Below, in pieces: positions 836 through 61,970 of a stretch of 64,000 nt of DNA. Position 1 is the stretch's first letter; the number at the start of each line of letters is the position of its first letter. The notes under the pieces were generated by a model. That model was given only the letters and a program-made list of their open reading frames with translations, ran no database searches and was not told where the DNA came from. Source of the stretch: Raja brachyura (lineage: Eukaryota); the NCBI GenBank assembly GCA_963514005.1, contig OY740795.1:39308001-39372000 (forward strand). Reading direction: 5' to 3'. The position numbers were made by a program, and so were the translations under genes.

Positions 836-852
836 AAAAGAGTTACAAACGA

Positions 853-1051
853 AACACAAAGTGCAGGAGTAACTCAGCGGGTCAGGCATCGTTTGCGGAG
901 GGAATGGATAGGTGAAGTTTCTGGTCTGTGGAAGGGTCCCAAACCAAATATCGCCTGTCAATTCTCTCCACAGATTCTGTCTGACCCACTGTGTTACTCC
1001 AGCACTTCGAGTTTTGTTTAAGATTCCAGCAGCTGCTTTTCTTTGCATCTC
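853..1051. mobile_element. Penelope-like pseudo-LTR inverted pair (degenerate)
   Basis: Left arm acacaaagtgcaggagtaactcagcgggtcagg is complementary to right arm ctgacccactgtgttactccagcact. Confidence 0.7.
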
Positions 1052-3348
1052 AGGAATAACAAACCGTTTTCTTCTCACTTTTAATGTACATAATGTGTAG
1101 AATAACTGATAAATGTGGACTCGGTATCTAACGTTCTGTACTCTCAGGATATGGGAAGAGGTACTCCACACAATAACAACCTAAATCAACATGTGTTGCA
1201 AATATTGGTTCATTTCACCATTCTTACATTTGAGATCTACTGTGTAAACTGCCTGATTTCAAGCAACAGATTTAGACTGAACAGTAATTGGATTACTCTA
1301 AAGTGATTAATCTAACTGCGGATAGCACGCAATCCACGAAGGCGAATTCAATGTTATTTGGCGTGAAACCATCAAACCACACGTGAAAATAGGAAATGGA
1401 TTTAAATATTTTAGAAGCTATGGACAAAACAATCAAAGGACAGATGTTACTTAAAAAATATTTTCTATTTTACTTACTTGGGTCTACTTGGGAGTGTGAA
1501 CTGACTATTTTGGATAGCAGCAAATTATGGTCTGTATATCTTAAACCACTTGAAAAACAATGACGCAACAATAGTACTTTTCTCACAACACAGTAGTGGG
1601 GAAAACTCTGCAGAAAAACTTATCATCTGTGCAACAGCCAGAATAATTCTGATACTAAAACTAAATCAACAGCAGTTACTGATATACACTGATTCAGAAA
1701 CGCCTAAAATTATTATCAAATTATTGCCAATTACAAATAAAAAGTGATAACTCTATAGCACAAGAAAATTGTGTTTTTAATCTTTTTTTTTTGCAATGAT
1801 ATTCAATAAATAACTTAACATTCACTTAAAATAAGCCCATCAAACGTGATTGCTGAAGGTGGGATCACAGCACCATTCAAGCACATGGAGCCCAGCTTCC
1901 TTAAACGTTTACTAAGTAACAGTAACGACAGTTAGAGGGAGCTTTATATCTGACTGCTGTACCTGACTGTGGAGTGATTCAGGGGTATCCAATGTGGCAA
2001 AACTGTTCCCTTTCTCGCCAATGAGATTCCTCATCTTGTTGAGCAGAAAATATGCAAGGGGCAAATGAAAATACAGAGATCAGGGCTCGAGATTACAGAA
2101 AGCAATTCAAACACAGCAATATTGACCAGACACCAAGCTTAATCAATAAGACACACTGTGTCAGTGCCATGAATTCCTAATTAAAATATAAGCTCCCCTC
2201 ATTTTTTTAAACCGGCCATATTCCTTCATTTAATAACCCAGGAACATTCCTTTTGGACCAGACCCAGATGCAGCTTGATCACCCGCTGGACCTTTTCATA
2301 CCTACAGCTGCACAGGTCCTCAGGAACAAGTCAGGTAATCTGTCTGCATAATTGATAACACCACACGATGAGACGAGTTGCCTACATAAAGTAGGCTGGT
2401 GAAAAGGCAGGCTTACTTGTTTGAATCCAAATCCAACAATACTGCAGCCTAACTTCAGGTGATGTAATTAATTGCCTTTTTTATTAACATAGTTATCAGA
2501 TCAATTATCTCCATGTGCTTCTGGGAAAAACCTTCAGCCCCTTTTCCCACCAGCGGGAGAACACTACTGAGGCCTAACACAAACATAGCTCAGTTACACT
2601 GCTTTCGACTTGGCTTATAAAACTAAATTAGAAACTCGTGTTGAATTTTATCCTGGGATTTAAGCCACAGAGGAGAAGCTCTGTTCTAACACTACTGCAG
2701 TTTACTTAAGTCCACCAACCGCCTCCCTCAACTGTGTTTCTTTTGGCCAAAACTTTGACTTCTTTTCAGCAATAGCCATCGAGCCCAGATATACATAAAC
2801 TTGTAACTCTTTCAGCACTTTAGTCCTGTGATCAACACAGAAATAAAGCAACCATATTCAATGGGAGATGAATTCAAGCCATCAAAAGCACCAATTTCTC
2901 TTTGCAGTGAAGCAGTGAGATATACCATCAACACATCAATCCTCTCACATCTTGCACTTTGCACTAACACAAGGTTACTCAGAGGAACTCAATGTCACAC
3001 CATTAAAGAACTTCTCTTTATCTCAAGCCTGTCGCCCTTTCCTCCTCTGGATTATTTGTAAAGTAGCTTTAGTTGCTGTGACAATATCTCCTGTTCAGCC
3101 TCTGAGGTGTTGCTCAATAAATACCGTTTTGCACATGAGCTTTGATAGCTCGCTCCAGCAGGTTATAAAAATCATCGGCAAGTTCAATCCTTCTCATATT
3201 TGACACACAAACGGCCAAATGTCAGTGGACATCAATCTGATGAGAACAGAGGCTGATTATTGTTTCCAACCGGTTATACAAGGTGGCATCAATTGTATAT
3301 CACCATCAATGTGGTAACACAGAGCAAAAACAGAACCAGGATGTTTCT

Positions 3349-3874
3349 GGAAGGACATTATTGCCATAGAGGGAGTGCAGAGAAGGTTCACCAGACTGAT
3401 TCCTGATGTCAGGACTGTCTTATGAAGAAAGACTGGATAGACTCGGTTTATACTCTCTAGAATTTAGAAGATTGAGGGGGGATCTTATAGAAACTTACAA
3501 AATTCTTAAGGGGTTGGACAGGCTAGATGCCGGAAGATTGTTCCCGATGTTGAGGAGGTCCAGGACAAGGGGTCACACCTTAAGGATAAGGGGGAAATCC
3601 TTTAGGACCGAGATGAGAAGGACTTTTTTCACACAGAGAGTGGTGGGTCTCTGGAACTCTCTGCCACAGAGGGTAGTTGAGGCCAGTTCATTGGCTATAT
3701 TTAAGAGGAAGTTAGATGTGGCCCTTGTGGCTAAGGGGGTCAGAGGGTATGGAGAGAAGGCAGGTACGGGATACTGAGTTGGATGATCAGCCATGATCAT
3801 ATTGAATGGCGGTGCAGGCTCGAAGGGCCGAATGGCCTACTCCTGCACCTAATTTCTATGTTTCTATGTTTCTA
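3349..3874 (+). mobile_element. CR1 LINE 3' fragment
   Basis: ORF 3406..3777 encodes the CR1 ORF2 C-terminus (LSYEERLDRLGLYSLEFRRLRGDLIETYKIL). Ends in a (tttctatg)n tail. Confidence 0.95.
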
Positions 3875-4896
3875 AACTCATTGCATAAAATCACTCCACC
3901 ATTAGTCTGTGGTGGTTCTGTTCATGAGAGTTATAATTAGATATGGCTTTGGATCCTACACGTCTATGATTTTAAGACTCAGGATGCTTAGACATCATTG
4001 AGCAGCTGGTCAGCAAAAGCTTCTCACGCCCGCTGCTCGATACAGAGCCACAGTGAACACAAGCTACAGACTTCCCTTACCCTGGGCACAAAGTGAATAA
4101 CTAACCAACTCACGAAACAGCGCAGACCGCACTCGTGGGACAATAGTAACCTCAGTATGGCAGCCTAACAGAGGACCAAAACTCTTGAGAAACTATCTGC
4201 TTTTAATCTTCAAGAAAACAGGCTTACTGAAACTTAAAGCAATCTGCAGTTTGCATCAGACTGGACTTGTTGGTGATTAGAAGTATTTTTTTAAACCCAC
4301 TATCAGTACCTTCAGCCAAGCTGAAAGCAGATGCTAGGATGTTTGCCAAAAACAAACCTCTCAAAAGTAGTAAGATTAATCATTTGCAAACGACATGGAT
4401 AGTAACAAAACAAATTAATAAAAAGGAAGAAAAATGTGCCTCTTATTCAAACCAGATGACACAAAGTATAGTCTTTTCAACAATCTAAAGGCAAAGTAAT
4501 ATAAACTTTTGACCCTTTGCAAAACATAAACATAATAAAGACATATCAGAGTGCTGATTTTTCTCAGTTGCATGACGAATTTTAAAAAAAGTGACCTTGC
4601 CAGCTAATGAATAAACAGACAGATTATTTTTAAATGAGTCCATCGGGCAATAAGTTTCTGGAAAAAGTGTGTATGCAGCCAAGTTTACTCAGATTTCACC
4701 AGCTAGCTCCTTGTAAAAGGAAGTCTGTGCCCAATCCCAATTTGCTCATCAATTAGTTCAGCTCCAGAGAAGAGGGAGTCAGTAGGCTTAGCCTGTGGAA
4801 GATAGTCCGCAATCAGCTTCTCCATTGCTTCCAGTTTGTAACAAGTTCCAGTTTGTGATTCCTTTAATCAGACTGCATTCTAAACAGAACTCTTAA

Positions 4897-5132
4897 GGGC
4901 CTGTTCCACTTTCACGACCTAATTCATGACCTCTGCCGAATTTGCCCTTGACTCATACTTGCAGCATGGTCATCACGAGGTTGTAGGGGGTCGTAGGTAG
5001 GTCATAGCAGGCAGTGAAGCTAGTCGTAGGTACTCGTGACATCAAGTAGGTCGGGGCGTTTTTTCTAGCCTGATGAAAAATGTCCACGAGTAAAAAAGGT
5101 CGTGAATTAGGTCGTGAAAGTGGGACAGGCCC
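4897..5132. mobile_element. MITE with about 36-bp terminal inverted repeats (PIF/Harbinger-like)
   Basis: gggcctgttccactttcacgacctaattcatgacct at the left; aggtcgtgaattaggtcgtgaaagtgggacaggccc at the right; preceded by TAA. Confidence 0.8.
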
Positions 5133-6910: not shown

Positions 6911-6979
6911 TGAGCAGCTGCAACAGCTGTGTCAACTGGTGCAGAGCTGCAGCATCAGCATCTAGTTTTAAGGTAAAAC

Positions 6980-7132
6980 GACACAAAGTGCTGGAGTAAC
7001 TCAGCAGACTGAATCAATCTGGAGAAGGATCCCAACGTCACCTATCCATGTTCTCCAGAGAAGACCCACTGAGTTATTCCAGCACTCTGTGTCCTTTTGT
7101 GTATTAACCATGATTTGCAGCTATTTGTTTCA
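6980..7132. mobile_element. Penelope-like pseudo-LTR inverted pair (internally deleted)
   Basis: acacaaagtgctggagtaactcag ... ctgagttattccagcactctgtgt form complementary arms. Confidence 0.7.
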
Positions 7133-7379
7133 ACTACATACAATGATAATACCTTACTTGGTTGTCCGCGGACAATTGGTAGTATGGACACCATTGCCCC
7201 CCCCCCCCCCCCATGGTCCATTATAAAGAGGGTTAGTGCATTTAAGTTAAAAGGTCAGAGATCTGTAACAGGGCCTTCAAACAAATCATTCATCCCTCTT
7301 TTTCCTGGAGCTACAGAAGATAAAGTGCCTGTCTGTATTTACTTAGTTATAGCTCATATATCTCCATATTTGGTTGCAA

Positions 7380-8138: not shown

Positions 8139-8755
8139 CAAGACTGACACAGACATTACAAAACATTTAGGAAATTGGTACCTAGGTCGGGATCTTTCTA
8201 ATGAAAGGTCTCAGAATGGAAATCCAACTGTCCCCCCCCCCCCCCAACCACCAGCACAGACGCGGCCTGAGCTCCTGTGTTTTATTTTGCTTTTATTTCA
8301 GATGTCTAGGATCTGCAGTTTTTTGATGTTTATTTACTAGCATACATGTTGAGACTCTTTTACCCTGTACTGCAGGAACAGATTGAAGTTTGCAATTTGG
8401 ATGACAGATGGCCCAGATAAGGCACCAAATCTTTAATTCTCTCTCCAGTAATGATGTTTTAATGACTCTTATGATCAACAATGCCTGGAAATTAATTTTG
8501 ATGTCCAAAATCTTTTCAGAATTTATGGCCACATCTTAGAAAATCTGCTAACAAACCTCACTATGACTGCAATCTATTTATGGGCCTCATTTGTCATTAA
8601 TCTTTTAATACATGGCATTTTAACATGTACTGCAATTAACTTTTCCAGCAATAAAATTTGCATTAGATCAATTTAGATTTATATAAAAACATTTGAATTG
8701 TTTTACTTTGGGTATATTGGAGAAAAACCATAGTGTCTGATCTATATGGAAGATA

Positions 8756-8842
8756 AGTCTCAACCCGAAACGTCACCCATTCCTACTCTCCAGAAATGCT
8801 GCCTGCCCCGCAGAGATACTCCAGCATTTTGTGTCTATATAG
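8756..8842 (+). mobile_element. Penelope-like pseudo-LTR mini-insertion
   Basis: cccgaaacgtcacccattcc...ccagcattttgtgtcta, flanked by imperfect direct repeats tctata(ta)tggaagata (8741-8755 / 8843-8859). Confidence 0.7.
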
Positions 8843-9139
8843 TCTATATATGGAAGATACATACACCCAGTTGGTCTATATGCTAAGTTATAACCAATCC
8901 AGACCAACAAACAATTAGCCACTGTTAGAAGCATCTAATTAAATGCAACATTTCTATTAATAAGTAAACTCCTTGTACTTAGATGTAGTTTAGGAATTTC
9001 CATTTCCAATTATTTAACATAGGTTTAATATTAGTGTAATTGATGTGATTTAATTTGGAGGATTTTTTTTAAAAAAGGAGCTTGATATAAACAGAACCAA
9101 AGATGCCAGTTTCTAGCAAACCAATATGCGTCCATTATA

Positions 9140-9240
9140 ATCTGAATTCGGGCCCCGAGCTGAAATGTCACCTATCCTTGATGTCTAGAGATGCTCCATG
9201 ACCCAGAGTTACTCCGGCATTTTGTGTCTCTCTTTGGTAA
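9140..9240 (+). mobile_element. Penelope-like pseudo-LTR fragment
   Basis: gaaatgtcacctatcc...gagatgct...gagttactccggcattttgtgtc. Confidence 0.65.
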
Positions 9241-11150: not shown

Positions 11151-11289
11151 CACAGTTCAAGTGCTGTAAAATGGCATTAGTATGGAAGGCTAAACAATGG
11201 TCAGCATGGGAATGGTGAGTCAAAGGACTGTTTCAGTGGAGCGCTAGTTGATATTGTCACACAGCAAGTTCCCTATTACATAAGCTACA

Positions 11290-11556
11290 CCCCAGCGGTA
11301 TGAACATTGACTTCTCCAATTTCAGGTGGTCCCTGCTTTCTCCTTCTTTCCCCTCCCCTTCCCAGCAGTCCCATAGCCCACTGTCTCTGCCTCTTCCTTT
11401 CTTCTTCCAGCCCCCCCCCCACCCCCACATCAGTCTGAGGTAGGGTCTCGACCCGAAACGTCGTCTATTTGATTAGCTCCATAGATGCCGCCTCACCCGC
11501 TGAGTTTCTCCAGCATTTATGTCGACCTTCGATTTTCCAGCATCTGTAGTTCCTTC
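11290..11556 (+). mobile_element. Penelope-like element 3' end (ORF C-terminus plus pseudo-LTR with hammerhead motif)
   Basis: Encodes LHPSGMNIDFSNFR, typical of the end of a Penelope GIY-YIG ORF. Then a pyrimidine tract and ctgaggtagggtctcgacccgaaacgtc. 9-bp direct repeat taagctaca at 11281-11289 / 11557-11565. Confidence 0.8.
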
Positions 11557-12561
11557 TAAGCTACAGTCTGTTCAGTTGGCTTCAAATTACTAATAATAGC
11601 TATAGACCTTGCTGTGTATGTTTCAGACAGAAATACGGTCAGTGTATGGATAATGTACACCATTGGGGTCTTTATGACAGAAATCGATATAGCAACCAAA
11701 CTCTAGCTCTCTAAACCATGTGGCACATTGGTGGTGATTGCCCACTCACTAGATTCACTACTGCACGTAAAGTGTACAGCCACAGAGGATGTTTTTGCAA
11801 TTTGGCAGACTGAATGAGCCGTCAGCAAGTGACGCACATTACAAACAGAAACAACAGAGGGGACGGTCCACGAACACTGATCTCATTATTAAATGTAAAA
11901 TACTTTACAACATTAGGAAACAAGCAGCTCATTTATTTTGGTCAAGGACTTTTCTCATAACATTAATCGGTTTCTTTTGTTTTAAAGCTCTGAGGAAGAG
12001 CTGAGGTATTAGTCATGTCCCAAGGGAGAAGCCCTCCCCAACCAGCGTACAGTGTTGTAGGGGGAATCCAGCTGCGAAACTCTCCCAGCTTCATTTGCAT
12101 CCAAACTTGCATTAGTGCAGAGTCTTTAGATACAGTCAGGTGCAAACACACACAGAAAAGGTGTGGCTGCAATGGTGTTAAAGAGCTAAATTCACGTAGC
12201 AGATTAGTGCCAGAGGCATGTGCAAGGTTAGGTTCTAGGTGTGGAGGACACAATTATCTGCCTAGCCAACAATCATCTACAGTTGTCACACAAAATATGG
12301 ATACACACCTGCCTGTTCACCCGCTCACATTCAGGATGTGTATGCCGATCCCTCCAAAGGTCAGAAACTAAACAACGCCTGACATGGTGCTGAGTGCCAC
12401 CCCCTTTTGCATCATGATGCACCCCTTATTTTAGGCACTGTTTGGGAGCTCTAAAGATCCACCATGTAAATTGTAGGTGCCATTGAATCTGGGCTGTGCA
12501 ATTTGTAAACGAAAATGTAAAACCTTAACAACGCCTTAACATGACCGGAAATCTTAAAATG

Positions 12562-12751
12562 AAGGAAATAGGCAACGTTTCGGGTCGAGACCCTTCTTCA
12601 GACTGGATCAGACTGAATCAGTCTAAAGAAGGGTCTTGACCGGAAACGTTGCCGATTTCCTTCGCTCCATAGATGCTGCCTCACCCGCTGACTTTCTCCA
12701 GCATTTTTGTCTACCTTTGATTTACCAGCATCTGCAGTTCCTTCTTAAACA
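12562..12751. mobile_element. Penelope-like inverted pseudo-LTR pair with two divergent hammerhead motifs
   Basis: Minus-strand motif at 12574-12601 and plus-strand motif at 12623-12650. Perfect 14-bp TSD gaaatcttaaaatg at 12548-12561 / 12752-12765. Confidence 0.85.
12574..12601 (-). ncRNA. Minimal type-I hammerhead ribozyme motif (GUU site)
   Basis: Reverse complement is CTGAAGA A GGGT-CTCG-ACCC GAAAC GTT: core CUGANGA, stem II, GAAA and an NUH triplet. Activity not shown. Confidence 0.7.
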
Positions 12752-12799
12752 GAAATCTTAAAATGTTCAGTTCTCATTAATATCAGCGAGCAAAATGAT

Positions 12800-14309: not shown

Positions 14310-14860
14310 GCTGGAGGGGCACAGTTGTACAGTTTGCAAAGCTGCTACTTCACTATATCAATGATCCAAGTTCAATCCTGACGTTGAAGTGGGTTTCTCC
14401 AGCTGCTCCAGTTTCCTCCCACATCCAAAAGACATGCAGATAGGTAGGCTAATTGTGTAAGAAGGAACTGCAGATGCTGGGTTACACCAGAGATAGACCC
14501 AAAATGCTGGAGTGACTCAGCGAGTCTTTCCTTAATATACGGTGCTGGCTTTGATTTGTTCTTTTCATTCCTTTCATTAATTTGTTCTTTGTACATTTTC
14601 ATGCCACTAGTTTCCCTCTCCCTGACTCTCAGTCAGAAGGGTTTCGACCCGAATCATCACCTATTACTTCTCTCCAGAGATGCTGCGTGACCCGCTGAGT
14701 TACTCCAGCATTTTGTGTCTATCTTTGGTAGATTAAATGCCTCTCACAAATAAAATCTGGAGGTGGATGTGCATATAGAAAGAAATGTTTACAGGGAAGA
14801 TGAGTGGGTTGGGGATCAATCTGGGAGCTGGCCATAAACTCACTGAAATGGCCACCTTAT
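14310..14860 (+). mobile_element. Degenerate SINE interrupted by a Penelope-like inverted-arm insertion (about 14455-14728)
   Basis: SINE B box agttcaatcc and V core precede gaaggaactgcagatgctgg...; the right arm is cccgctgagttactccagcattttgtgtcta. Confidence 0.6.
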
Positions 14861-17700: not shown

Positions 17701-18689
17701 CCATATCAATGGGCCACCATTTAGCGTGATCGAGTTCGACGGCACAATAAGCAGCCTTTGGGCCCAATGCACCGTGCTAACCAGGGTGTCTTCCTGAGCT
17801 AGTCCCACTCCACAGCACTTGGCCCATAACACTGCCCTATCCATGAACCTGTCGAAATGTCTTTAAAAATAATTTAAAAGTCATTATACCCAGATGCTGC
17901 CTACTCGCTGAGTTCCTCCAGCAGGTTGCTTTTTTGCTCAAGATTGCAGCAACTGCAGTTTCATGTCTCTCCTATCATTCTATAGTTCATTGCTATGTGC
18001 AAGATGTAAATCATTACACTGTATGATTATTTTTATTATTATTGGCAAGAATAAGATATGGTTCACCCATTCTTTCTCCATCAACAGTCATTAAAGATCA
18101 TTCATTCTTTAGGACCGATAATGAAAAAAATCAGCTTTATCCCCGTTAAGCTACGAAAATTCACGATAAATGGCCTGGATGTTGGACAGCTACCTAACAT
18201 ACAACTTTAGTGCTCCAAACTCTGTTACGTTCGAACAGGCCTTTCCAGAAAGTGGTCATTGGTTTCCAATCCCTAGAGTGAGGAAAATGATCCAATTGAT
18301 GCAATAGAAATGCCCTGTTAATGAATCTTGCCTGTGATGGCAAATGGCAGTCATATTAGGTCACTATCACTGTGGAAATATGACTGTGGCTTTCTACAGC
18401 AACTTCCAGCAATGGTGTGTGAGAGACAGTAAAGAGCCCCATGTTCTGACCCTGTCACTTGCTTCGTGGTTTCTGTTGAAAGGGGTTTGTGAAAAAAAAT
18501 CTGTGCTGTAGAAATCATTAGAGTGCAAAATCTGGTCAGTTCTCAACCACGAACATTTAGGAGATTACTGCAGCTGTAAATAAAGCAGGTAGCATATTCA
18601 GTCAAAAGTGTGGCAAAGAGCTGGAGGAGGAAAGAAAACTATATTTTAGACAATCTGGGAAATATATCCCTTTTGTTGTCAATTAATAG

Positions 18690-19519: not shown

Positions 19520-19623
19520 GACTTCACTCGTCTGAAGAAGGGTCTCGACCCGAAACGCCACCCATTCCTTCTCTCTGGAGATGCTGCCTGTCTCGCTGTG
19601 TTACTCCAGCTTTTTGTGTCAAT
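19520..19623 (+). mobile_element. Penelope-like pseudo-LTR mini-insertion with hammerhead motif (cleavage triplet mutated to GCC)
   Basis: ctgaagaagggtctcgacccgaaacgcc at 19532-19559. 13-bp TSD ccta(c/t)attcagtg at 19507-19519 / 19624-19636. Confidence 0.8.
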
Positions 19624-21257
19624 CCTATATTCAGTGAGGTGTGTACGTCAGGTAAGTGGTGGTGCATGCCAGGAAGGAAGCACCATTGAGAGAACTTGTT
19701 GGATTATTTGCATCAACCCACAACAAAAACCCTATTACTACCATTAGGACTGGCCACACCTCAATATCCACAGTCACCACCTTTATGACAAATGTCATTG
19801 TGCTTCAGTTACTTGTTAGAAATTATGAAGTACATTGGCTCTCAGGAAACTTGAAACATTTAAAAATAAAACTTGTTTACTGCTTTGAGCAGATGTTGCT
19901 GGCAACCAGAAGCCTTGACAGAATCTGGATTAGAGATGTTCCAGTCAGGAAAATTTGGCAATGGTCACAAGTTTTAAATCCTATTATCTCTGACCATAAA
20001 ACCAAGCTCAGCCATAAAATGCACCTGGAGGCTACAAATTTTCCTGCATGCAGTGTGTTGGAAGTTTGAATCTCAGGACAGGTTTCTCATCCTCAACTTC
20101 ACATGCCTGTATGTCTCTTTATTTTTTTACAAACTAATCTGCTTGCTGCTTTGTTTGTAGTACCTATGGTGTCTCATTGTTCCCCAACCCCACACCCAGG
20201 TCAAGATCAGGAAATTATTATTTAGTATCCGGCTAAACACTTTGCAAAATACATTGAATAATATACATTTCTAGCAATTAATCACATTTAAACCTAAACA
20301 TTACCCTTTACCACCTCATTCTCAGCAGGCATTGGCACAACAAGAGTTTTAATTATTTCTACAAATGATGAACAAACTGAATCTTGCAGGTGAATGTCAG
20401 CAGTTTCATGATATTTATCCCCCTCAATGCAAGCAAGTTCGGGATTCATGCTTACTTACATCCGCATGTGGAATCCCAAACTTGCTGACAGATTGCCCGC
20501 TGGGTGAATTCTGCCTTATGCTCTCACACCAGTCTCCACATGAAGGCAGAGCACAAACTTGATGCGAGTCCCCAACACTTAGACTGGGAATCAGTTTTAG
20601 GATCGTGTGCCAGGATTCATCTGAGACCCCATTCATTGCCGTGGAGAAAATACAACTGTATGGAACATAAACAGACTAGTTATCAAGCATGTTATCTATT
20701 ATTTTTTATCTCAGTGGTATTGCCTTGATTATTTTGGCATTCTTAATCTTGCTAATAATTTTCTAGTTAACATTATTTTGCTCATTATTTAACAGTTTTT
20801 GAAAGCAGCCCAGAAACTTTACAGATTTGACAGATGGCTGATCAGCGGGGGGTGGGCATAGCAATCTGTCAAAATTTCCACAGCAGTTAGTGGGTGGGCT
20901 TGTTCTGAGCCACCCATGTGACCCTGTTATGGCCTTTGATCTTGTTGATTAGGTCCAGGTTGCTCTCCACCAGCAAGTTCATCCTTATGGACGCGAACCA
21001 AATAAGTTCGGAACGACAAGGAATCTGATTGATGAACAGGGATCAGAACTTGTTTAGTACGTTGGGTTAATATGGAACTAATCGTTATTTACTTACATCA
21101 CACTTTTGAAATTCTATTACCTGTCAACTAAAAACAAACAAAAAATACAATAAAATTCTGCATTCTATAGGATCTCTCATCTATAAAATGCTCTACAAGG
21201 ATTTTCTTTTTGTAAATTTGAATGCTGCCAATAGTTGATCCAGTTGGTCTTCAATAA

Positions 21258-21347
21258 TAAACACAAAATGCTGGAGTAACTCAGCGGGACAGGCAGTATC
21301 TCTGGAGAAAAGGAATGGGTGACGTTTCGGGTCGAGACCCTTCTTCA
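21258..21347 (-). mobile_element. Penelope-like pseudo-LTR mini-insertion
   Basis: gacgtttcgggtcgagacccttcttca. Direct repeat tcttcaataa at 21248-21257 / 21342-21351. Confidence 0.8.
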
Positions 21348-36177: not shown

Positions 36178-36302
36178 AAGGAACAGCAGATGCTGGTTTA
36201 TACGAAAGATAGACACAAAATGTTGAAGTAACTCAGCGGGTCAGGCAGAATCTCTGGAGAAAATGGATAGGTGACACATTTCGGGCCGGGATCTTCTTCA
36301 GA
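36178..36302 (-). mobile_element. Penelope-like pseudo-LTR fragment
   Basis: ggaacagcagatgctgg...aactcagcgggtcaggcag...tttcgggccgggatcttcttcag. Confidence 0.75.
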
Positions 36303-37660: not shown

Positions 37661-40471
37661 AAACAAAAGAATAATTGATATTTAAGAGCTAATTGTGATG
37701 TGAGATGTCAGCATCCTGCAAAAGTTCCATGACATATTCTGCAAATTTTCATACACTGCCCATTTTGAACTTTACTGTTTTACCTAAAAAGTCCCAACAT
37801 GCCTGTGCAATGTATGGCCCGTCAGTGGGACGCCTTACTGCCAAGTGTCTCAACTCAATTTATGAATTTGGGCGGGTTGTAAAGGGTAACACGATAAAAT
37901 GACAGGAACTCTCCTTTGCTGGAGGTGCTGGTGTCATTGAACAAAGGCCTCTTTGATTCCTGCAGGTGGATGTGAACGAGCACATGGGCCATTCGAATGG
38001 TATCCTCGTCTAAAGTTGCTTTAAAAAAAATGCTCCCATAACACTGACTGCACTGACGTAGCTGTAAATGGCCTTAGGCTCACATGAGGACATAGAAGGT
38101 GCTTCTCCCATTTCAATGACAAATATCAGAATGAGAACTGTGCCCACAGGATTGGTACTGCAGAAATCTGCATTATGCAGAAAGACTGGAGCAATTTGAG
38201 TCTCTTATCCTTCAAAGGAAACTGTTGTGAGGTGATTTTAAAGCGATTCAATACGGTAATAATACAGAAAAAAGCATCATAAATGAATCATTCATGACTC
38301 TGGGTTAAATAATTCCTATTGAAAAAATGAGAGGTGTACCTTTGTAGGGAAGTGTGTTGACCTATTCTATTACTGCGGTGACAAAAGTTGAAAACGCTAT
38401 CCATTAAATCTTATGATTACAGATAAGGAAAATCATTCAGCCCGTCTTTCTCATTTGCAGTTTTCAAATAAGCTTTATTGGATTCAAGGGTCTTAATTTG
38501 ATTATGGGGTGCAGAAGACTAATCTATGCATACTGCAACATATTCAATTTAGTAAATGGTACATGTGGATAAATATCATTCAGCACTTTGTCGAACGCTG
38601 GCTCTTGCCTCTACTAAACATCAAGAGAACGAGGTGGTTCCAATCAAATGCCAAATTTAGTGCAGAACTAAAATTACTTGCAAGATAAATGTTGTGACTG
38701 ACCTGGCCCAACCTGTTCTAACTGAGCAGGTTCGGTTAAATTTGGAACTGTTGAATCATCAATACATGAACAGAATTTCCCGATAAAATATACAGAATAT
38801 AAACTCTAGAATATATCAAAGAGGAGGTTTGGTTGCTGCAATTGACAATTCAGAACTTTCCCAGATGGATGTATAAAGATGGGTTGAAAGGACTCACTTA
38901 TCCATAATTAACAAGAGCTTTTATGATCTGGTTATTGTTCTTGTCATCATGGCAATATAACAAGTTAGCCCTGCTGGCATCAGTATAATCACCTGCAAGG
39001 CTCTGCTTCTTATTCATCCAAATAGGAATTAAATTGTTTAACACAGTTTCATAAATGATTGATGTGACACAATGATTATTTCCATCAGTGTGTAGGCTAT
39101 TCATCATAAACTATTTTAAGCCAAAGGCATGTTCAACCCACCAAAATATATTTATATCACAGTGATTCATTATTTTGTTAACACAGTCCGCTATAGCCTT
39201 AAAACATTATAAATAATGAATGTTTAATTTAAATAAAGACTTTTATGTAGATCCAAGAGACCTTTTCACTGCCCTCCATCGTACTAATTCAAAAAGCCTG
39301 CAAACAGATTAAAACGATCAACTCAGAAAACTCTCTCTCAACCCTGAACATAATTCAATTTAGGAGACAAACAGAATTATTTTAAAGACCCAGAACATCG
39401 TCACAATCCAGATCCTTGAATGGCAAAAAAACAAGTTGATTCTTGGCAAAACTAAATACAACATATATACAGTTTCACTCAAATAAATCAACTTGATACT
39501 GTATTAACCAGGGAAGCAGTGACAGCATTTTTCACCAACTCGCTCATTTGAAAACCATTAATAATTTGATGATCGAGCTAGCACAGTGCATGGCCTTTTC
39601 ATGCCACAGCATGTCTTAAGCTTGTAACTCAGTCATGATGAGGCAAACCGATGGGTCCTGGTTACGTTAGAAGTAAGAGTACTCCGTGAAAGCCAAGAGA
39701 AATTCCAAGCCCTGGAATCATTCTGATCCACTCATTCTGGGATATAAAAATAGTTTGCATTTTAAAGACGGGCTGCAAATGCAAATGGAAGGGATCGTGA
39801 AGCAGATTATTTGCCTGCCAAGTAAATCAGGGAACATTTCATGAGGAATTATTGAAGTGACAAGGAGAGATGTGAATAATGCACAGGGACATTATGGGAA
39901 GACATACCTGCCAATCAATCAAGCATGCACAACGCAGTCCGAAAGAAATCCAGATAACAAACTACAAAGCGTGAAATCAATATGCGAACACTTGACATTC
40001 TGAACTTAAAAGGACTGATTTACCTTTACGTTTAAATGAACGATGCCAATATTCCCATTGTTCCCTATTTCTTAGAGTTTTAATGCTTTGTATTGTTATC
40101 AGTAGGGATGGTGGGAGGCAGTGATGTATATGTTAATGAATTAGTACCAGGATCCATCAGGTTATTCTGCAGTGGCAAATTATAGCTTTGCAATGAAATA
40201 AAGATGATTTTGCGCCATTTGCATTCAGTTCAGCACTGGTATTCTGTATGCAACAAACGATCAACGGCACCATGTATGCAGTTGTGGAATTGAACATTAG
40301 AATCAGCACACAGTACACAGCCGCTACCTGGTGCAAACGTATTGGCAGTAGCCCATGACGGATTGCCACTCATCTGCTTTCCTTCTCAAAAAATGAATTC
40401 CCTACTATAACAATTATATATTTTACAATTACAGAAGGGGTTTCGTAAAATATATTAAATTAGTTCAGTAG

Positions 40472-40563
40472 GTAGACACAAACTGCTGGAGTAACTCAGC
40501 GGGACAGGCAGCATCTTTGGAGAGAAGGAATGGGTGACGTTTCGGGTCGAGACCCTTCTTCAG
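40472..40563 (-). mobile_element. Penelope-like mini-insertion with intact hammerhead core
   Basis: 10-bp TSD agttcagtag at 40462-40471 / 40564-40573. Confidence 0.85.
40536..40563 (-). ncRNA. Minimal type-I hammerhead ribozyme motif (GUC site)
   Basis: Reverse complement is CTGAAGA A GGGT-CTCG-ACCC GAAAC GTC. Sense with respect to the FAM53B pre-mRNA. Activity not shown. Confidence 0.72.
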
Positions 40564-41209
40564 AGTTCAGTAGATATTCAACATGAAGGATGATAACAGG
40601 CAGCCGACTATAGGGCATCTCCCTCGTAACTGCATCAGTGTCACTATAAGGATAAAGAATATGGCTTGATAATGTCTCTCGCCATTTTGCAGGATCATGC
40701 TGCGCAAATACAAAAATGCCACTGTGGAAGTAAACTGAATATTGACTCGGCTTCTTATCCCTCCATTGTCAATGAGTTCCCCTTCCTTCGCTTCTGAAAC
40801 TAGGCTGACATCTGGTCCTTGGTTTCGTTGTCATCCAAGTGTTCTGAAGTGGGAAACTGTTTGCAACAGGAAGTGCATCACAACAGCGGTCAACTCGCCC
40901 AACAGTAACACAGGCAGATTTCAAGTCAAGGTCAGTAATCCAGAACAGGAAAGTCTGGATAATTTATTTCCTCCCAACTCTGGCTCTGAGGAAAATTGTG
41001 GGAACCCTGGTGCTCCTCAGGATATCAGTCAACTGAACAAAGACGGGATCGTCTGGGTCTTAGCTACTCACTAAAAAGCACATGGGCAAAGCATTCACTA
41101 AAAGCACACAAACAGAGGATGTGGGCCAGCCTAATAGATGCTCACAACTCATTTCATAATTTGTCACTGCAATAAGTGGACAATATCTATTTGTCTATTT
41201 TGTAAATAT

Positions 41210-42895
41210 TCAATTTCAGCATCTGGATGTCTCCAGCAAGGTCAGGATTTATTGCCCAATCCAAAATACCTTCAAAAAAGGTATTGCCGCCTTGATGCAC
41301 TACAACTCTTCCTACGTATATACTCCCGCAGTGTTGTCGGGCAGAGAGTCCCAGGATTTCAACCAAGTGATTATGAAGGAACAGTGATACATTTCTAAGT
41401 CACTCCTATATTATCATAGAAACATGCCTTTTGCCCAACTTGCCCATGCTGACCAAGATACCCTATCTACGCTAGTCAGAACAATGTGTGGTTTAAACAT
41501 GCATGATTGTGTTCCCAAACATCTACTGCCATTTTCTTTCTTTGCGGATTTGGGAGATGCTGTGGGAATTGACCATGGCAAGGAACCGCAGCACATCTCA
41601 AAGATGGCCAATACAATACAGCCAATACATGTTCCATGCATGTGCCTTGTGGATCATCATCAGCCAGCTCAATACAGCCATTGTATACCAATGGTGGAAA
41701 AAATGAATGCTTGGTATGGCTGATGGGGTGTCATTAAGTGGGCTATATTGTCCAACATGACATTGAGCTTTTTGTGAGTTGATGAGTTACTCATGCATGT
41801 GAGTGGAGAATATTCCATCATGCCTTGTGGATCATCATTAGCCAGCTCGTTGTTTCAAGATTGTCCAGAGCCGAGTGTCCAAACTCAAATTGGTCACCGG
41901 TGAGTAGGTTATTGGTGAGTAACTGGGGTTTAGAACTTTAGTGTTGATGATAGCTTCCATCACTTGTTGATGATTGAGAGTAGAATGACTGGATGAAAAC
42001 TGCATGGCCAGTGTTGTAATTATATTGAAACTGCTTGGCTGAAGGTGCAGCAAGTTCTGGAGTGCATGTCTTCAGTACTAGATCTAAGATATTGCCTGGT
42101 CATAAAACCTTTGCTGTATTCAGGGCTCTCAGCCGTTTCTTGTTATCACGATGAGCGAATCCAAGTGGTTGAACACCGACTGTTGTGATAGTGGGAATGG
42201 TAGACAAAAGTGCTGGAGAAAATCAGCGGGTGCAGCAGCATCTATGGAGCGAAGGAAATAGGCAACGTTTCGGGCCGAAACCCTTCTTCAGTGATAGTGG
42301 GAATCTCAGGTGGATACTTGGATGGATCTTCCATTCAGCACCCTAATTGAATATGATTGTGAATGCTTTGGCCTTTTCTTTAGCACTCACATGGTGCCGC
42401 TCCTACCACTGAGAAAGGGGGTGATCTTGAACCCTTCTCCTCCTGTTTGCTGTTCAATTGCTCACCACCATTCATGGCTGGAAGTGGCAGGTCACCAGAG
42501 CTTCCATCTGATGCGTTGGTTGTAAGATCACTTATACTCATCTATTGCATGCTGGTTTTGTTGTTTACTCTGCACATGGTTCTGTATTGCAGGTTCCAAA
42601 TAAACGTTTGGTACACCTGTTGCTTCCAGCATGCACACTTCAGTGAACTAGGGTTGACACATTGTCTTGACACTAAATGGTGGATTGAGGGAAAGTACCA
42701 GGCCATGAGGCTACAATCATCGGGGGTGTAAATGTATACTTCTGTTGATGGTCTACAGTGCCTCATGGATGCCTGCTTTTGAGATGCCACATCTGTTCTG
42801 ACTCCAACATTTGTAATGCCACAAACATAATGGAGAGTCCCCTAGCTGCAAGGATGGACCTTTGTCTTCCCAAAGAGTGCAGAACATGTATCTTT
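41210..42895 (-). mobile_element. Ancient CR1-group LINE remnant, interrupted by younger inserts
   Basis: 3' end reverse complement (cagcaaggtcaggatttattgcccaatcc) matches the family at 32900-33790; no intact ORF. Confidence 0.55.
42199..42290 (-). mobile_element. Penelope-like mini-insertion with hammerhead motif (stem II variant)
   Basis: Reverse complement CTGAAGA A GGGT-TTCG-GCCC GAAAC GTT. Perfect 14-bp TSD gtgatagtgggaat at 42185-42198 / 42291-42304. Confidence 0.85.
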
Positions 42896-43055
42896 GTAAA
42901 CATAAGAAATTGCCAATGCTGGATTTAAAAAAAGACAATACTGGAGTAACTCAATGGGTCAGGCTGCATCTCAGAGGGACATGCATAGGTGACGTTTCAC
43001 GTCGGGACCATTCATCAGAGGGATTGTAGTGGAGAGAAGAAAGCTGCAGGAGAGC
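42896..43055 (-). mobile_element. Penelope-like pseudo-LTR fragment
   Basis: ctggagtaactcaatgggtcaggctgcatctc...gacgtttcacgtcgggaccattcatcag (CTGATGA core on the minus strand). Confidence 0.7.
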
Positions 43056-43782: not shown

Positions 43783-45657
43783 ATCAAAGTGCTTTCTATG
43801 CAACGTCTTTTGGGAGTGACTCCTGACGGACGTGTATGAAAATGTCCTTCCCCGCTCCCACAGAACTGCACAAGCATTGAGTACAATGACTCTCCTCTTG
43901 TTTAAAACGAAGTAAACAAGTTCAATGCTGCTGGGGGGAACAAATATGAACAGCAGATCCAGGCAGGTGTCACAAGAGACATCTTATTTGCAATTGCGTC
44001 AGGAGTGGGAAAGCATCAGACGGCAACTAGTTACAAGCGATCGGCTTCATTGGTTCATGAAGACAAACTTGACAAACTTGCCTGGGTCCTCATCCAGGAT
44101 GTTAATTACACTATACCCACTGCCATTATACACCACTGCGCACCAGTCTAAACACTCTGCTATCAACATCCACGCAGCCCACAACTGGAGGCTGGCAGGC
44201 AGGAGTCACGGCAGCCATTTTTATACTATTAACATTGTCCTCAGGCCTAAAATGGAGATGTAGTCATGGCGTAGGCAGAAGACCTGACCCAGAAAAGCTG
44301 TAGATCCAGAAGAAAAATCTGCCAACTGGCAGTGTTTACCGTGGCCAACACCACCCCCAGTCTCACACCTCATGCCCCAAGCTCAGCATTAACAGGTGGT
44401 GTCAAAAGCTCGCAAACAATACTCTAAACCTATAATATGGCTTTGAGTTCCACTCAGATTGATTCACAAGACCCTGCGGTCCTCCCATTGTTGAAGTTAG
44501 TCCATAATGGGTCAGTACATACATTGATGATCCATCATAGTTGTGGCAGAGAAAAACCTGTTAGGAGTGACCTTGATGCCTCAGCATAGAGTGCAAGCAA
44601 GGATTGGGATGGGGAGTCAATGTTCTGCCCTCTGCTGAAAAAAGTGCAAGATTAAATAAAGGGACAATTTTAGGACAGGCAAGGGTGAGCAGGTGATGTA
44701 CTTCAATTGTCACATGAGGGGTTTGATGGAAATGATTAGGATTTAAGATGATTATATCAGCAGCGCATGGCTGCAGCCAGAGAAACATTGGCTCAGAGTT
44801 GATCTCCAAAATTCAGACACTGCATTGCATCAGTGAAGGGGAAAGTTATCTGGTAGCTTCATTCCAGGAGGCGGTCACAACCTTTAGGTTGAATACCGTA
44901 GAACTGATCAATCAAGAAGGATAACATGGTGTGGCAACGTGTGGCAGGTATTGGGACGAGAAAGGAACAATGGTCAGTGCTTCAATTTGTCCGATACATA
45001 CAAAGTTCTTGCAACCTGTGTGGACAAGAGTACTGTGGTTTGGGAGCCATTCAACATAGGGGAATGAAAGAGAGGACATTAAGGTTAGATGTGAGAGTGA
45101 ATCTCAAAGGTGTTACTAGCTGCGAGGTGCCAGGAGTAAGGGTATCTCCTCAGAGCTGGAGAGGAACTTGGAGCGGGAAGGGAAAAACTAATTATTGTGA
45201 TCCTTGCGGAACTAATGTGCAGGGAGAGTACAACAAAGGCTCTGCTGAAGGAGAATAAGCAGTTAAGAGTCCAAATCAACAAAGGTAATAACCTTTGGAT
45301 TGCCACACAATTGAGCCTCGAATAAACTGGCAACGGGTAAATTGGGTTAGAGAATTGAATGTGAGACTCAATAGATTGGAGTGGGAGAAGTGTGTTTCAT
45401 TTCACGGGACACTGGCACTTATACTGGGAAAACGGTTCCATTGGATCGAGTTTCAATTTAATCAGGCAGGAGCTAGCGCCTCAGCTAATCGAATAACTAC
45501 GTCTATGATATGAACTAATAACAATTATATGATTTTAAACAAATTCCTAGGGAGGGGAGGTAGGAATGATTTGGTATGGGAAATCTATGAAGTTGAAGAG
45601 AAAGGGCAAAGCTTTTCAGCAAGGTAGTGCCGATAACTGGAGTGTGCCAGGACAAAA

Positions 45658-45790
45658 TGTGTAGGAAATAACTGCAGATGCTGGTTTAAATCGAAGGTAG
45701 ACACAAAATGTTGGAGTAACTCAGCAGGACAGGCCGCATTTCTGGAGAGAAGGAATGGGTGACGTTTCGGGTCGAGACACTTCTTCAGAA
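45658..45790 (-). mobile_element. Penelope-like pseudo-LTR fragment with hammerhead motif
   Basis: gacgtttcgggtcgagacacttcttcag at 45761-45788. Confidence 0.8.
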
Positions 45791-45974: not shown

Positions 45975-46232
45975 ATTTCGCTTGGGTAGCTTACACCCCA
46001 GTGGTATGAACACTGACTTCTCTAATTTTAAATAGCCCTTGCTTTCACTCCCTCTCCACCCTCTCCCCCTTCCCAGTTCTCCCACTAGTCTTACTGTCTC
46101 CGACGACATTCCTTCTCTGTCCCGCCCACTCCCCTGATATCAGGCTGAAGAAAGGTCTCGACCCGAAACGTCACCCATTCTTTCTCTCCAGAAATGCTGC
46201 CTCTCCAGAGTTACTCCAACATTTTGTGTCTA
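45975..46232 (+). mobile_element. Penelope-like element 3' end with ORF terminus and hammerhead motif
   Basis: FRLGSLHPSGMNTDFSNFK* followed by ctgaagaaaggtctcgacccgaaacgtc (46145-46172). 12-bp TSD aaaatagaaaat at 45963-45974 / 46233-46244. Confidence 0.85.
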
Positions 46233-47059
46233 AAAATAGAAAATGAGTCAGGTATGCCTAATATTGCCGCAACAGAATAAAGAGAGCAAAGAGAAAAATC
46301 CAGACTCAAAAATATCAATTAAAAGAAGCTTGGGTGGAGATAAGAGATGGCAAAAGTCAAACAACTTTGGCAGGAGTTGAATGTAGACACTAAAAACAGT
46401 TGGTCATCTTAGAGTGTAGTAACCAAGGGAATAAAAGAATCACAGGGACTTTAATGTACATGCAAGGCGGAAAATCAAATTGCTGGTGGAAGTGTGAGGG
46501 ATGAATTCATCAAGTGCATAAGTAATGGTTTGCTGGATCACAAATCAAAGCAGAAACAGTCTATTGCACATCTAGCATTGTGCACGAAAGGAAAGGTTAA
46601 TTATGGTATTAAATCTAACCAAGGCAAACTACGAAAGTAGGTTGTGTGATCTGGTTGTGCATAATTGGAAACTACACAAACAGAGAGTGAATGCACACAA
46701 CCTTTTTCCGCACAGTTGGAGAATCAAGAATTGGAAGGCACAGGTTTAAAGTGAGTGGGGAAGATTTAACAAGAACCGAAGGGGCAGCTTTTTCACAGAG
46801 GAGTTGGTATGTATATGGAACGAACTACGGGAGGAACTGGTTGAGGCAGCTATAAGAACATTTAAAATAATTTGGACAGGTACATGGATAGGAAGGTTTT
46901 AGATGAATGTGTGTCCAAAATGGGCGTGGGACATGCGTAGAAGGGCAACTTGATCGGCATAGACAAGTCAAGCTGAATGGTTTGTTTTCATACTCTATAT
47001 AGTAAATAAGCAATGGCAAACTTTCAAGAACCTTTGGATATCAAAATAAGTTAAGGAGA

Positions 47060-47490
47060 GTAGAAACAGGGAACTGCAGATGCTGGTTTGCAAAAAGAAA
47101 AGTACTGGAGTAATTCAGCAGCTAATGCAGCATCTCTGGAGAATATGGTGACATTTCGGGTCGGGTCCCTTCTTCAGACTGTTAGGCGGCGGGGGGAGAA
47201 AACAGAAAGAGAGGAGGAGCAGGACAAAGTCTGGCAGGTAATAGGTAAGTACGGATGAGGCAGATGGTTGGACAAAAGTTTGAGATGAAAAGACAGTTAC
47301 GAGACAAAAGGATTGAAGAGTTGCGAATTGTGAATCTAGAGGAAGGAATGTAGATGGAAGGGGAGGAAGAGGAGTGAAATAGGTGTGAGAAAAGGAGAAA
47401 TGGTTAGCAACTGTGAGATCCAGTCGGCCTTGACGTACTAAGTACAAGTATTTGGTGAAACAGTTGCCGGGTCAATGCCTGATCTCATCG
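47060..47490 (-). mobile_element. Penelope-like element 3' region
   Basis: gaactgcagatgctgg...gacatttcgggtcgggtcccttcttcagact followed by a purine-rich tract, the complement of the pyrimidine tract seen in other copies. Confidence 0.7.
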
Positions 47491-60654: not shown

Positions 60655-61195
60655 AGATCAAGTTCAAGTGAGTTTATTGTCATGTGTCCCTGATAGGACA
60701 ATGAAATTCTTGCTTTGCTTCAGCACAACAGAACATAGTAGGCATGACTACAAAACAGATCAGTGTGTGCATATACCATTATATAAATATATATGCACAC
60801 ATGAATAAATAAACTGATAAAGTGCAAATAACAGATAATGGGTTATTAACATTCAGAGTTTTGTCCGAGCCAGGTTTAGTAGCATGATGGCTGGTCGTTG
60901 CAGTCTTCAGGCTCCTGTACTTTCTACCTGAAGGTAGCGGGGAGATGAGTGTGTGGCCAGGATGGTGTGGGTCTTTGATGATACTGCCAGCCTTTTTGTG
61001 GCACAACTGCGGTAAATCCCCTCGATGGAAGGAAGGTCAGAGCCGATGATGGACTGGGCAGTGCTTACTACTTTTTGTAGTCTTTTCTTCTCCAGGGCGC
61101 TCAAGTTGCCAAACCAAGCCACGATACAACTGGTCAGCAAGCTCTCTACTGTGCACCTGTAGATGTTAGAGAGAGTCCTCCTTGACAAACTGACT
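60655..61195 (-). mobile_element. Rex1/Babar LINE 3' fragment
   Basis: LSNIYRCTVESLLTSCIVAWFGN...KKAGSIIKDPHHPGHTLISPLPSGRKYRS, the Rex-Babar ORF C-terminus, plus 3' UTR. Confidence 0.88.
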
Positions 61196-61339
61196 CAGGT
61201 CTCTTATTAAAAATAACTTAGACTGGCATCCTCTTAAAACTCCATTTTGTCTCTGTGCAATGGTCATCTGCCTTCTTGACCTTAATGCCACGATTGAGAA
61301 AAGGAATCAATATATGTAGAATATCACAAACACAAACCT

Positions 61340-61423
61340 AGGTAGACACAATATGCTGGAGCAACTCAGCATCTCTGGGGAAAAGAAATGGGTGACATTA
61401 TGGGTCGAGACCCTCCTTCAGAC
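61340..61423 (-). mobile_element. Penelope-like pseudo-LTR fragment
   Basis: ggtagacacaatatgctggagcaactcagc...gggtcgagaccctccttcag. Confidence 0.7.
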
Positions 61424-61761
61424 ACAGGCGGCATGGGTTATTAATGGTCTCTTGGAAAAAAAATGAAGGCCAGGAGTTAACGAGAACTGAGTACAAATAT
61501 TAAGATAAATGAATTTGTCATGGATTCCAATCAGGGTTTTCATAGAAATGCTCATTTATTTATGGATGAAAAGGATAAAGTTCACATGATCTTCCACTTA
61601 AAAACAGTGCATTGTATCCATCTTTTCTCCACATAAATTAGCACAACATCCATAAATTGGACGTACCATAATGTGACATTTGCAACAGAGATATGATTTT
61701 GTTTTAAAGGCTCATGGTATTTTCAGGGATCAGATCTTTTCAACAATAAAAATGTTCAGGG

Positions 61762-61970
61762 TTACACAAAAAGCTGGAGAAACTCAGCGGGTGCTCAGCA
61801 GCAGCATCAGAAACTCAGCAGCATCTAAGGAGCGAAGGAGGCGACGTTTTGGGTCGAGACCCTTCTTCAGATTGGTCAGGGATCAGGGAAATGAGGGATA
61901 TAGACGGTGATGTGGATAGATAAAGAACAATGAATGAAAGATATGCAAAAAAGTATCGATGATAAAAGAA
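61762..61970 (-). mobile_element. Penelope-like pseudo-LTR fragment with local rearrangement
   Basis: gctggagaaactcagcgggtg...gacgttttgggtcgagacccttcttcag; gaaactcagc is duplicated. Confidence 0.7.

What the first reader, a model, noticed from the sequence alone, without database searches (positions are those of the whole stretch)
850..61970. Dispersed hammerhead-ribozyme-bearing Penelope-like repeat family throughout the FAM53B introns
Seen: more than 20 related fragments. The best carry CTGAAGA-A-GGGT-CTCG-ACCC-GAAAC-GT(C/T), on the minus strand at 12574-12601, 40536-40563, 42264-42291 and 45761-45788, and on the plus strand at 46145-46172. Mutated copies are at 11435, 12623, 19532, 21321, 42991, 47150 and 61843. 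Two longer copies (11290, 45975) are preceded by an ORF end (FRLGSLHPSGMNxDFSNF) typical of Penelope GIY-YIG ORFs. Known: Penelope-like element pseudo-LTRs carry minimal type-I hammerheads with almost no stem III, thought to act as dimers through a palindrome (here ACGT). Two subfamilies use GUC-A versus GUU-G at the cleavage site; both are NUH triplets and both following bases can pair with the T before CTGA. Stem II variant GGGT-TTCG-GCCC keeps its pairing. Inference: a very abundant ribozyme-carrying retroelement family in this fish genome.
Basis: partly seen in the sequence, partly recalled or inferred. Interest (0 to 1): 0.8.

Follow-up and report, generated by a model that had tools for sequence, protein, structure and literature searches.

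The report
A million hammerhead-tipped Penelope fragments
These are short end-pieces of a known kind of jumping gene (a Penelope-like retroelement) that carry a minimal hammerhead ribozyme motif and number an estimated one million in this genome, and their ends suggest they were likely copied from uncut RNA, with the two cut DNA strands likely starting at two different sites.

Summary
Confirmed; a known kind of element. The window holds 25 fragments of the pseudo-LTR of Neptune-clade Penelope-like elements. The parent has RT, a CX4CxxC linker and GIY-YIG, and a near-full copy has a 5' hammerhead-bearing pLTR. The motif fits the published minimal type I hammerhead consensus. It is not FAM53-specific: sampling 1.18 Mb gives about 1.2 million fragments (4.9% of the genome), and 61,494 exact cores were counted genome-wide, far above published counts.

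Copy ends bear on mechanism. 214 of 536 5' ends lie at -7..+3 of the core; 5 lie at the cut site. 208 of 536 fragments form head-to-head pairs, and 60 of 69 independent pairs join one long and one short 3' end.

Best reading: uncut RNA is copied from both nicked target strands at two start sites. Cleavage is untested. Helix I has only 2 bp, a rival hairpin is predicted to be more stable, and only 1 of 25 window copies keeps the full fold. The scan noted the 5'-end clustering before, in another genome.

The parts
851..1043 (.). Head-to-head pair: 851-926 minus (+15..+90, short 3' end) and 930-1043 plus (+4..+118, long 3' end); positions are relative to C3 of the hammerhead core
6943..7134 (.). 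Head-to-head pair: 6943-7025 minus (+40..+120) and 7012-7134 plus (-7..+127), decayed
8749..8839 (+). Short copy (+2..+92) with a 13-nt target-site duplication
9139..9238 (+). Short decayed copy (-3..+98)
11287..11566 (+). Long copy, subfamily B: end of the GIY-YIG ORF, pyrimidine-rich pLTR, mutated core at 11435-11462, long 3' end
12561..12608 (-). Arm of a head-to-head pair; core 12601-12574 is the only window copy that fits the whole minimal-hammerhead descriptor (2-bp helix I, 4-bp helix II, ACGU palindrome, GUU cut triplet)
12617..12754 (+). Partner arm with long 3' end; the pair is flanked by a target-site duplication of at least 14 nt
14450..14731 (.). Head-to-head pair: 14450-14526 minus (+58..+134, long end) and 14513-14731 plus (-122..+100, short end)
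17892..17973 (+). Tail-only fragment (+47..+128)
19526..19626 (+). Short copy, core at 19532 with U16.1>C, TSD-like flanks plus filler
21243..21347 (-). Short copy starting at the core
29907..30079 (.). Head-to-head pair: 29907-30018 minus (long end) and 30022-30079 plus (3' broken)
36178..36302 (-). Short copy (-1..+122)
40469..40564 (-). Short copy with exact core 40563-40536, starts at the core, 13-nt TSD, helix I 5' strand absent
42197..42295 (-). Short copy with exact variant core (GGGU-UUCG-GCCC, GUU) 42291-42264, perfect 14-nt TSD abutting the core
42896..43053 (-). Decayed subfamily C copy (-41..+127)
45657..45789 (-). Short copy with long 3' end; helix II broken by one change
45976..46241 (+). 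Long copy, subfamily A: ORF end FRLGSLHPSGMNTDFSNFK*, pLTR, mutated core at 46145-46172
47059..47312 (-). Long subfamily C copy
61337..61427 (-). Short decayed copy
61755..62013 (-). Long copy of young subfamily D, core 61870-61843 with G12>A
35118..35924 (-). Host gene: large FAM53-family coding exon (context only)
   Evidence: Pfam PF15242 E 1e-72

Best explanation
These are 5'-truncated insertions of Neptune-clade Penelope-like retrotransposons, made of the pLTR hammerhead motif plus about 70-100 nt downstream, and they were likely made by target-primed reverse transcription of uncut element RNA in which the two nicked DNA strands likely prime at two different internal sites (about +95 and +128). 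Shown: the parent ORF and its motifs, the two 3' ends, target-site duplications, the head-to-head pairs with one long and one short end, the pile-up of 5' ends at the upstream edge of the core, and the lack of ends at the cut site. Inferred: when both primings run, the two cDNAs are joined at their tips to give a head-to-head pair; when one aborts, a solo copy or a tiny inverted arm results. Inferred, weaker: copying stops at -7..+3 because the template RNA begins there, at an initiator-like YCAGT shared by all subfamilies, so the transcript's own 5' pLTR yields about 100-130 bp products. The hammerhead is kept by selection in the source elements and would cut only when dimerised or helped by protein. 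Nearly all inserted copies are predicted to be inert.
For: Parent: RVT_1 E 8.8e-7 and GIY-YIG E 4.3e-4 in open stretches of natural copies (both just under Pfam's cut-offs, as are most of these domains in full-length relatives). A shark protein is 62% identical over 573 aa to copy L087. DKG, RT motifs, the CX4CxxC linker and CxxC within GIY-YIG are present. L083 has a 5' pLTR with the motif, then the ORF. 3' ends are bimodal at +85..104 and +120..134. 104 head-to-head pairs against 7 tail-to-tail and 19 tandem; 63 of 76 classifiable pairs are long+short, and 60 of 69 after dropping 8 pairs with shared flanks, p 1e-10. TSDs: 15 of 66 pairs against 1 of 327 swapped; 30 of 142 solos against 2 of 142 swapped, 26 of them ending within -50..+45 where the control has none. 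Rate of ending per base: 8.1% at -7..+3, 0.37% at the cut site (+27..29), 0.5-1.8% elsewhere. The short-end arm reaches further 5' than the long-end arm in 36 of 63 pairs, and L226 has a tail-only inverted arm; simple fold-back of one cDNA does not give this. Families A and D share 75-77% in the ORF and 50-52 of 94 nt upstream but 28 of 28 in the core. In vitro, the anole element extends both strands, starts at two sites, uses unprocessed RNA, and its hammerhead needs the protein (PMC11167929).
Against: No RNA data and no cleavage test. PMC11167929 saw no difference in start site between strands in vitro, whereas the pairs here are strongly non-random. The 5' stop is not one base: deconvolution spreads starts from -5 to +2 (92 solos). 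The extra G expected from a capped 5' end was not supported: 7 of 8 in a small post-hoc set, but only 1 of 20 selected loci had TSD+G+AGT and 6 were pair arms. Unmodelled subfamilies can inflate the pile-up: 13 of 30 unselected young copies were long by eye, against 118 of 332 core-spanning copies by HMM. Central deletions in palindromes after insertion could mimic arm asymmetry. Loop II is also identical between A and D, so the constraint may be for protein binding or promoter function, not catalysis. TSDs were found in only about a fifth of copies.
Confidence: 0.6

Rival explanations
1. Same element, but pairs arise by self-priming: one cDNA (or an antisense RNA template, as proposed in PMC3846280) folds back at the TCAG-N-CTGA palindrome just upstream of the core, and the endonuclease resolves the hairpin, leaving the tail on one side only.
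For: The palindrome at -5..+3 sits exactly at the pile-up, and several junctions are near-perfect palindromes centred on it (L083, L107, L112). Arms are usually of the same subfamily: mean distance 0.149 within pairs against 0.224 between, partner in the closest tenth for 29 of 54. Only 17 of 207 arms pass -8, against 101 of 320 solos.
Against: The short-end arm is the longer at its 5' side in 36 of 63 pairs. Many junctions have filler or non-overlapping arms. Solos also pile up (123 of 320 at -7..+3), and both short-end and long-end solos have clean TSDs with no inverted arm.
Confidence: 0.22
2. The 5' pile-up marks a structure or bound protein and not the RNA start: the +2..+39 hairpin, or protein on the hammerhead, halts reverse transcription or protects the cDNA tip from trimming; or the YAG/T at -2/-1 is a 3' splice site, as in Drosophila Penelope.
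For: A hairpin pairing GAAG..GGGU with ACCC/GCCU..CUUC is the predicted ground state and ends at about +2. Starts are spread over about 8 nt. All subfamilies have a pyrimidine tract then CAG/T, and the D. virilis intron ends at helix I (PMC4209133).
Against: No shared upstream exon among short-copy flanks. No GT..AG joint among the best-supported joints listed in contigs (357 joints not shown, runs not on record as RNA). A fully paired RNA:cDNA hybrid should not be opened by imperfect hairpins (inference).
Confidence: 0.13
3. The short copies are a separate SINE- or retrozyme-like family, transcribed by read-through and re-inserted, with the hammerhead cutting the RNA as part of the cycle.
For: 446 of 536 fragments are 140 nt or shorter. 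Animal retrozymes are proposed to derive from pLTRs (bioRxiv 10.64898/2026.07.22.740005).
Against: TSDs abut the core with no carried flank. Only 19 tandem neighbours. 5 of 536 starts at the cut site. Each subfamily tested continues into an RT-GIY-YIG ORF.
Confidence: 0.05

Closest known systems
Minimal hammerheads (min-HHR) in pLTRs of metazoan Penelope-like elements (Cervera and De la Pena 2014, PMC4209133)
   Same: CUGANGA, one unpaired base before G10.1, GAAA, palindromic 15.2-16.2, NUH; nearly the same layout as the Acropora Neptune motif in Fig. S3; mostly dispersed single copies.
   Different: Helix I is 2 bp with a U-A or U-G pair (the listed 2-bp cases are both G-C pairs). 61,494 exact cores against about 4,000 (coelacanth) and 9,000 (Xenopus). 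No cartilaginous fish in the supplement parts read.
Neptune-clade endonuclease-positive PLEs (definitions in PMC8557442)
   Same: Single RT + C-terminal GIY-YIG ORF, CX2-5CxxC linker, pLTR, heavy 5' truncation, adjacent inverted copy, 30-40 bp tail on one end.
   Different: About 0.9 million insertion events estimated, against about 37,000 called exceptional for Naiads; most are about 100 bp; the TSDs seen are in ordinary sequence, not microsatellites. Clade placed by motif, no tree built.
PAc, Poseidon from Anolis (Frangieh 2024, PMC11167929)
   Same: Two internal RT start sites defining the tail, both strands extended, hammerhead cleavage not needed for insertion.
   Different: Here the AUG lies about 160 nt after the core, not inside it, and genomic pairs use the two sites non-randomly, one per strand, which the in vitro assay did not show.
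Adineta Penelope inverted pLTR units (PMC3846280)
   Same: Head-to-head inverted pLTRs, palindromic junctions, tail on one arm, TSD around the whole unit, initiator-like motif in the pLTR.
   Different: A few copies there; here hundreds could be counted, and they fit two primings better than the self-priming proposed there.

Membership tests
Penelope-like elements, EN+ | One ORF with telomerase-like RT followed by GIY-YIG endonuclease | tested here: met
   seen as pieces in broken natural copies, no intact ORF among those fetched
Penelope-like elements, EN+ | pLTR repeat at both ends of the ORF | tested here: met
   L083: ORF-end sequence, core and tail upstream of the ORF start, and a broken 3' pLTR
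Penelope-like elements, EN+ | 30-40 bp optional tail and adjacent inverted truncated copy | tested here: met
Neptune clade | CX2-5CxxC linker between RT and EN, and cysteines within GIY-YIG | tested here: met
   linker in L084, L087 and L296; CxxC within GIY-YIG in L295; also L014
Neptune clade | RT phylogeny with reference Neptune, Nematis and Poseidon sequences | not tested
   No named reference set was held; Nematis also has a linker motif
Minimal type I hammerhead of PLEs | Core CUGANGA-H, G10.1-C11.1, GAAA, palindrome, NUH | tested here: met
   modal letters; 61,494 exact genome matches, 0 for the reversed control
Minimal type I hammerhead of PLEs | Helix I closing the cut site | tested here: inconclusive
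   only 2 bp in 21 of 29 descriptor hits; predicted pairing probability <=0.0005
Minimal type I hammerhead of PLEs | Compensatory changes in helices | tested here: not met
   only one-sided changes (U-A to U-G) at 11.4 and 1.1 in 200 anchored copies; the subfamilies may be too close to show more
Minimal type I hammerhead of PLEs | Self-cleavage as a dimer or with protein | not testable with these tools
   no RNA holder on record
Non-LTR retrozymes | Tandem arrays of units, each with a hammerhead | tested here: not met
   19 tandem neighbours against 104 head-to-head among 536

The most novel reading that the evidence does not exclude
This genome holds a natural record of about a million Penelope-type integration events showing that one integration complex primes the two target strands at two different, assigned RNA sites and copies an uncut transcript to its 5' end, which sits right on the hammerhead. 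The hammerhead would then be a protein-gated switch at the very start of the RNA that removes the cap and first 30 nt (an off switch, or a dimerisation handle) and not a processing step in transposition.
Probability: 0.3. Interest if true: 0.72.

Novelty: new member of a known kind. Interest (0 to 1): 0.42.

Why it matters
The role of hammerheads in Penelope-like elements is called unclear in the papers read (PMC8557442, PMC7761336), and the integration mechanism has only one in vitro study. A family with about a million fragments turns single-copy anecdotes (tail on one end, inverted arms) into counts, and gives exact predictions for where capped and cut RNA ends should lie. It also makes this motif about 5% of a vertebrate genome, on the order of the most abundant SINEs (comparison recalled). 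The individual copies in this gene are ordinary decayed insertions.

Tried and rejected
Rfam scan of the window: no hammerhead family at E<=1, two chance miRNA hits. Peak of 5' ends at the cut site: absent, 5 of 536. Cap-derived extra G: suggested by 7 of 8. Genome counts were D-G-AGT 2,941, R-A-AGT 1,309, R-T-AGT 564 (the patterns differ in their first letter), but only 1 of 20 fetched loci was a clean case; not supported. An apparent discrete 5' end at -150 in family D was the query's own truncation. Special stability of the short copies: folding z-scores of -1.5 to +0.9, not significant. Read-through SINE with carried flanks: TSDs abut the core. RNA evidence: no RNA holder listed; contigs of four runs showed the same depth step and opposite-strand joints but cannot show starts or ends. 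tblastn of full-length relatives against the window found no significant hit, because the ORF remnants are too short. Lunse et al. 2017 is not held; only its title was seen. The last FAM53 exon was not found. No earlier notes for this genome.
Full report
Observation. Every coordinate given holds a fragment of one repeat family. With six profile models built from natural copies, the window has 25 fragments, 14 minus and 11 plus. Three have an exact core, and one fits the whole minimal-hammerhead descriptor. Positions below are relative to C3 of the core; the predicted cut lies between +27 and +28. A FAM53-family exon is at 35118-35924 minus. A second exon near 55500-55560 was found with a recalled motif. 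Rfam gave no hammerhead hit.

Parent. Walking upstream through the own genome gave copies up to about 4 kb. L083 runs: ORF-end sequence, core, tail, an ATG about 160 nt after C3, RT, an inserted CR1-like piece, linker, endonuclease, broken 3' pLTR. Pfam gives RVT_1 at E 8.8e-7 and GIY-YIG at E 4.3e-4 in 2 of 5 element stretches scanned, both under the curated cut-offs; most of these domains in three full-length relatives score alike. 31 longer relatives were found. One named from the shark Chiloscyllium is 62% identical over 573 aa to L087, which is the basis for inferring a cartilaginous-fish host. DKG, RT motifs, CX4CxxC and CxxC inside GIY-YIG occur in natural copies. By the passages read in PMC8557442 this linker marks Neptune or Nematis; Neptune is my call from motif form and vertebrate range, with no tree. 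A second, younger family (D; copies 90-98% identical) has its own ORF and a longer stretch before the same core.

Abundance. 118 stretches of 10 kb at round coordinates on large contigs (1.18 Mb; 2 more requested did not exist) held 511 fragments: 1.17 million genome-wide (bootstrap 1.00-1.34), 4.9% of bases, about 0.94 million insertion events, median 102 nt. An exact 28-nt core pattern occurs 61,494 times, control 0. The sample held 20 against 26.9 expected, so it does not overstate. The descriptor with helix I gave 29 hits in the sample, about 66,000 genome-wide, with 0 in a reversed and five shuffled controls. Published figures are about 4,000 and 9,000 min-HHRs (PMC4209133) and about 37,000 copies for the most abundant Naiad (PMC8557442); the methods differ.

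The motif. It matches the Fig. S3 consensus of PMC4209133. Between families A and D the core is 28 of 28, the tail 46-49 of 62, the upstream part 50-52 of 94 and the ORF 75-77% (3 A and 3 D copies, the A copies chosen with a near-intact core), so source elements keep it under selection. Against strong activity: helix I has 2 bp, changes are one-sided only, and a rival hairpin is predicted at -8.7 to -12.1 kcal/mol against about -4 for the hammerhead fold, with helix II probability at most 0.015 in 4 of 4 copies (the model ignores tertiary contacts). Inserted copies show ordinary CpG decay through the catalytic G12 (60 of 200 are A).

Ends. 3' ends form two peaks about 33 nt apart, the known tail. 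5' ends: 214 of 536 at -7..+3 and 5 at +27..29; ending rate 8.1% per base against 0.37%. TSD search in 142 short solos found 30, control 2; 14 end at -7..+3 and 26 within -50..+45. So these are true insertion edges and templates were not cut at the hammerhead, in line with the in vitro result in PMC11167929. Caveats: HMM edges are good to a few bases, and unmodelled subfamilies add false starts (13 of 30 unselected young copies were long). The cause of the stop is open. An initiator-like YCAGT is shared by all subfamilies (initiator consensus recalled; PMC3846280 notes a similar motif), but starts spread from -5 to +2 and the cap-G test failed.

Pairs. 104 head-to-head, 7 tail-to-tail and 19 tandem neighbours. 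15 of 66 pairs tested in the first sample have a TSD around the whole unit, against 1 of 327 swapped. Of 76 pairs with both 3' ends classifiable (28 dropped as unclassifiable), 63 are long+short; after removing 8 pairs with shared flanks, 60 of 69, p 1e-10. A tail on one arm is described qualitatively in PMC8557442 and PMC3846280. The short-end arm reaches further 5' in 36 of 63 pairs, the long-end arm in 22, which a single fold-back cannot give without later deletion. I therefore favour priming from both target strands, one per site, on the same RNA or on two RNAs of one subfamily (cannot tell these apart).

Literature seen: PMC4209133 main text parts 1-2 of 4 and supplement parts 1-2 of 3; PMC11167929 parts 1-2 of 4 plus passages, supplements not opened; bioRxiv 10.64898/2026.07.22.740005 parts 1-2 of 5 plus passages (it includes one chondrichthyan; its supplements were not seen and may list this family); passages only of PMC8557442, PMC3846280, PMC2377424, PMC6155905, PMC7761336 and PMC8455134; Lunse 2017 title only. 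Nine searches listed no paper on this family's copy number or end statistics. Repbase, Dfam and subscription journals were not searchable, so it may already be catalogued. Two earlier scan notes on other genomes report the same motif and 5' clustering; they were read after my analysis and are not independent evidence.

Verdict. A new, extremely abundant member of a known kind. The window itself is ordinary. The end statistics make the open questions about PLE hammerheads and integration directly testable. Interest 0.42.

Noticed in passing
L129:6295-6971, also L137, L112, L198, L206: A roughly 690-bp element with 62-bp inverted ends (MITE-like; Harbinger type by recall) carries a head-to-head hammerhead pair inside it; 5 copies with the pair in 1.18 Mb, so the double motif has been re-amplified as a passenger of another transposon.
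   Followed up: partly
window 15146-16850 plus; also 3342-3871, 22208-22552, 31629-32147, 52908-53414: CR1-like LINE remnants; 15146-16756 is a 536-codon open stretch with RVT_1 E 3.5e-23.
   Followed up: partly
core +24..+28 of the repeat: If transcription starts at the A of YCAGT, the cut-site letters CGTCA/CGTTG fall at +28..+32, the register of a downstream promoter element, matching 4 of 5 positions of the recalled consensus; the core may double as a promoter.
   Followed up: no
core +8..+19 of the repeat: The helix II hairpin is self-complementary enough to form a 10-bp duplex between two RNAs (dimer energy about -20 kcal/mol against -6 for the double hammerhead).
   Followed up: partly
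L044:1230-1335, L070:1160-1427: The long N-terminal part of the ORF holds a 27-nt tandem repeat of variable copy number.
   Followed up: no
L022:1285-1460: An ORF-start fragment followed by a core and tail, with no pLTR upstream part, is inserted inside another copy's RT region.
   Followed up: no
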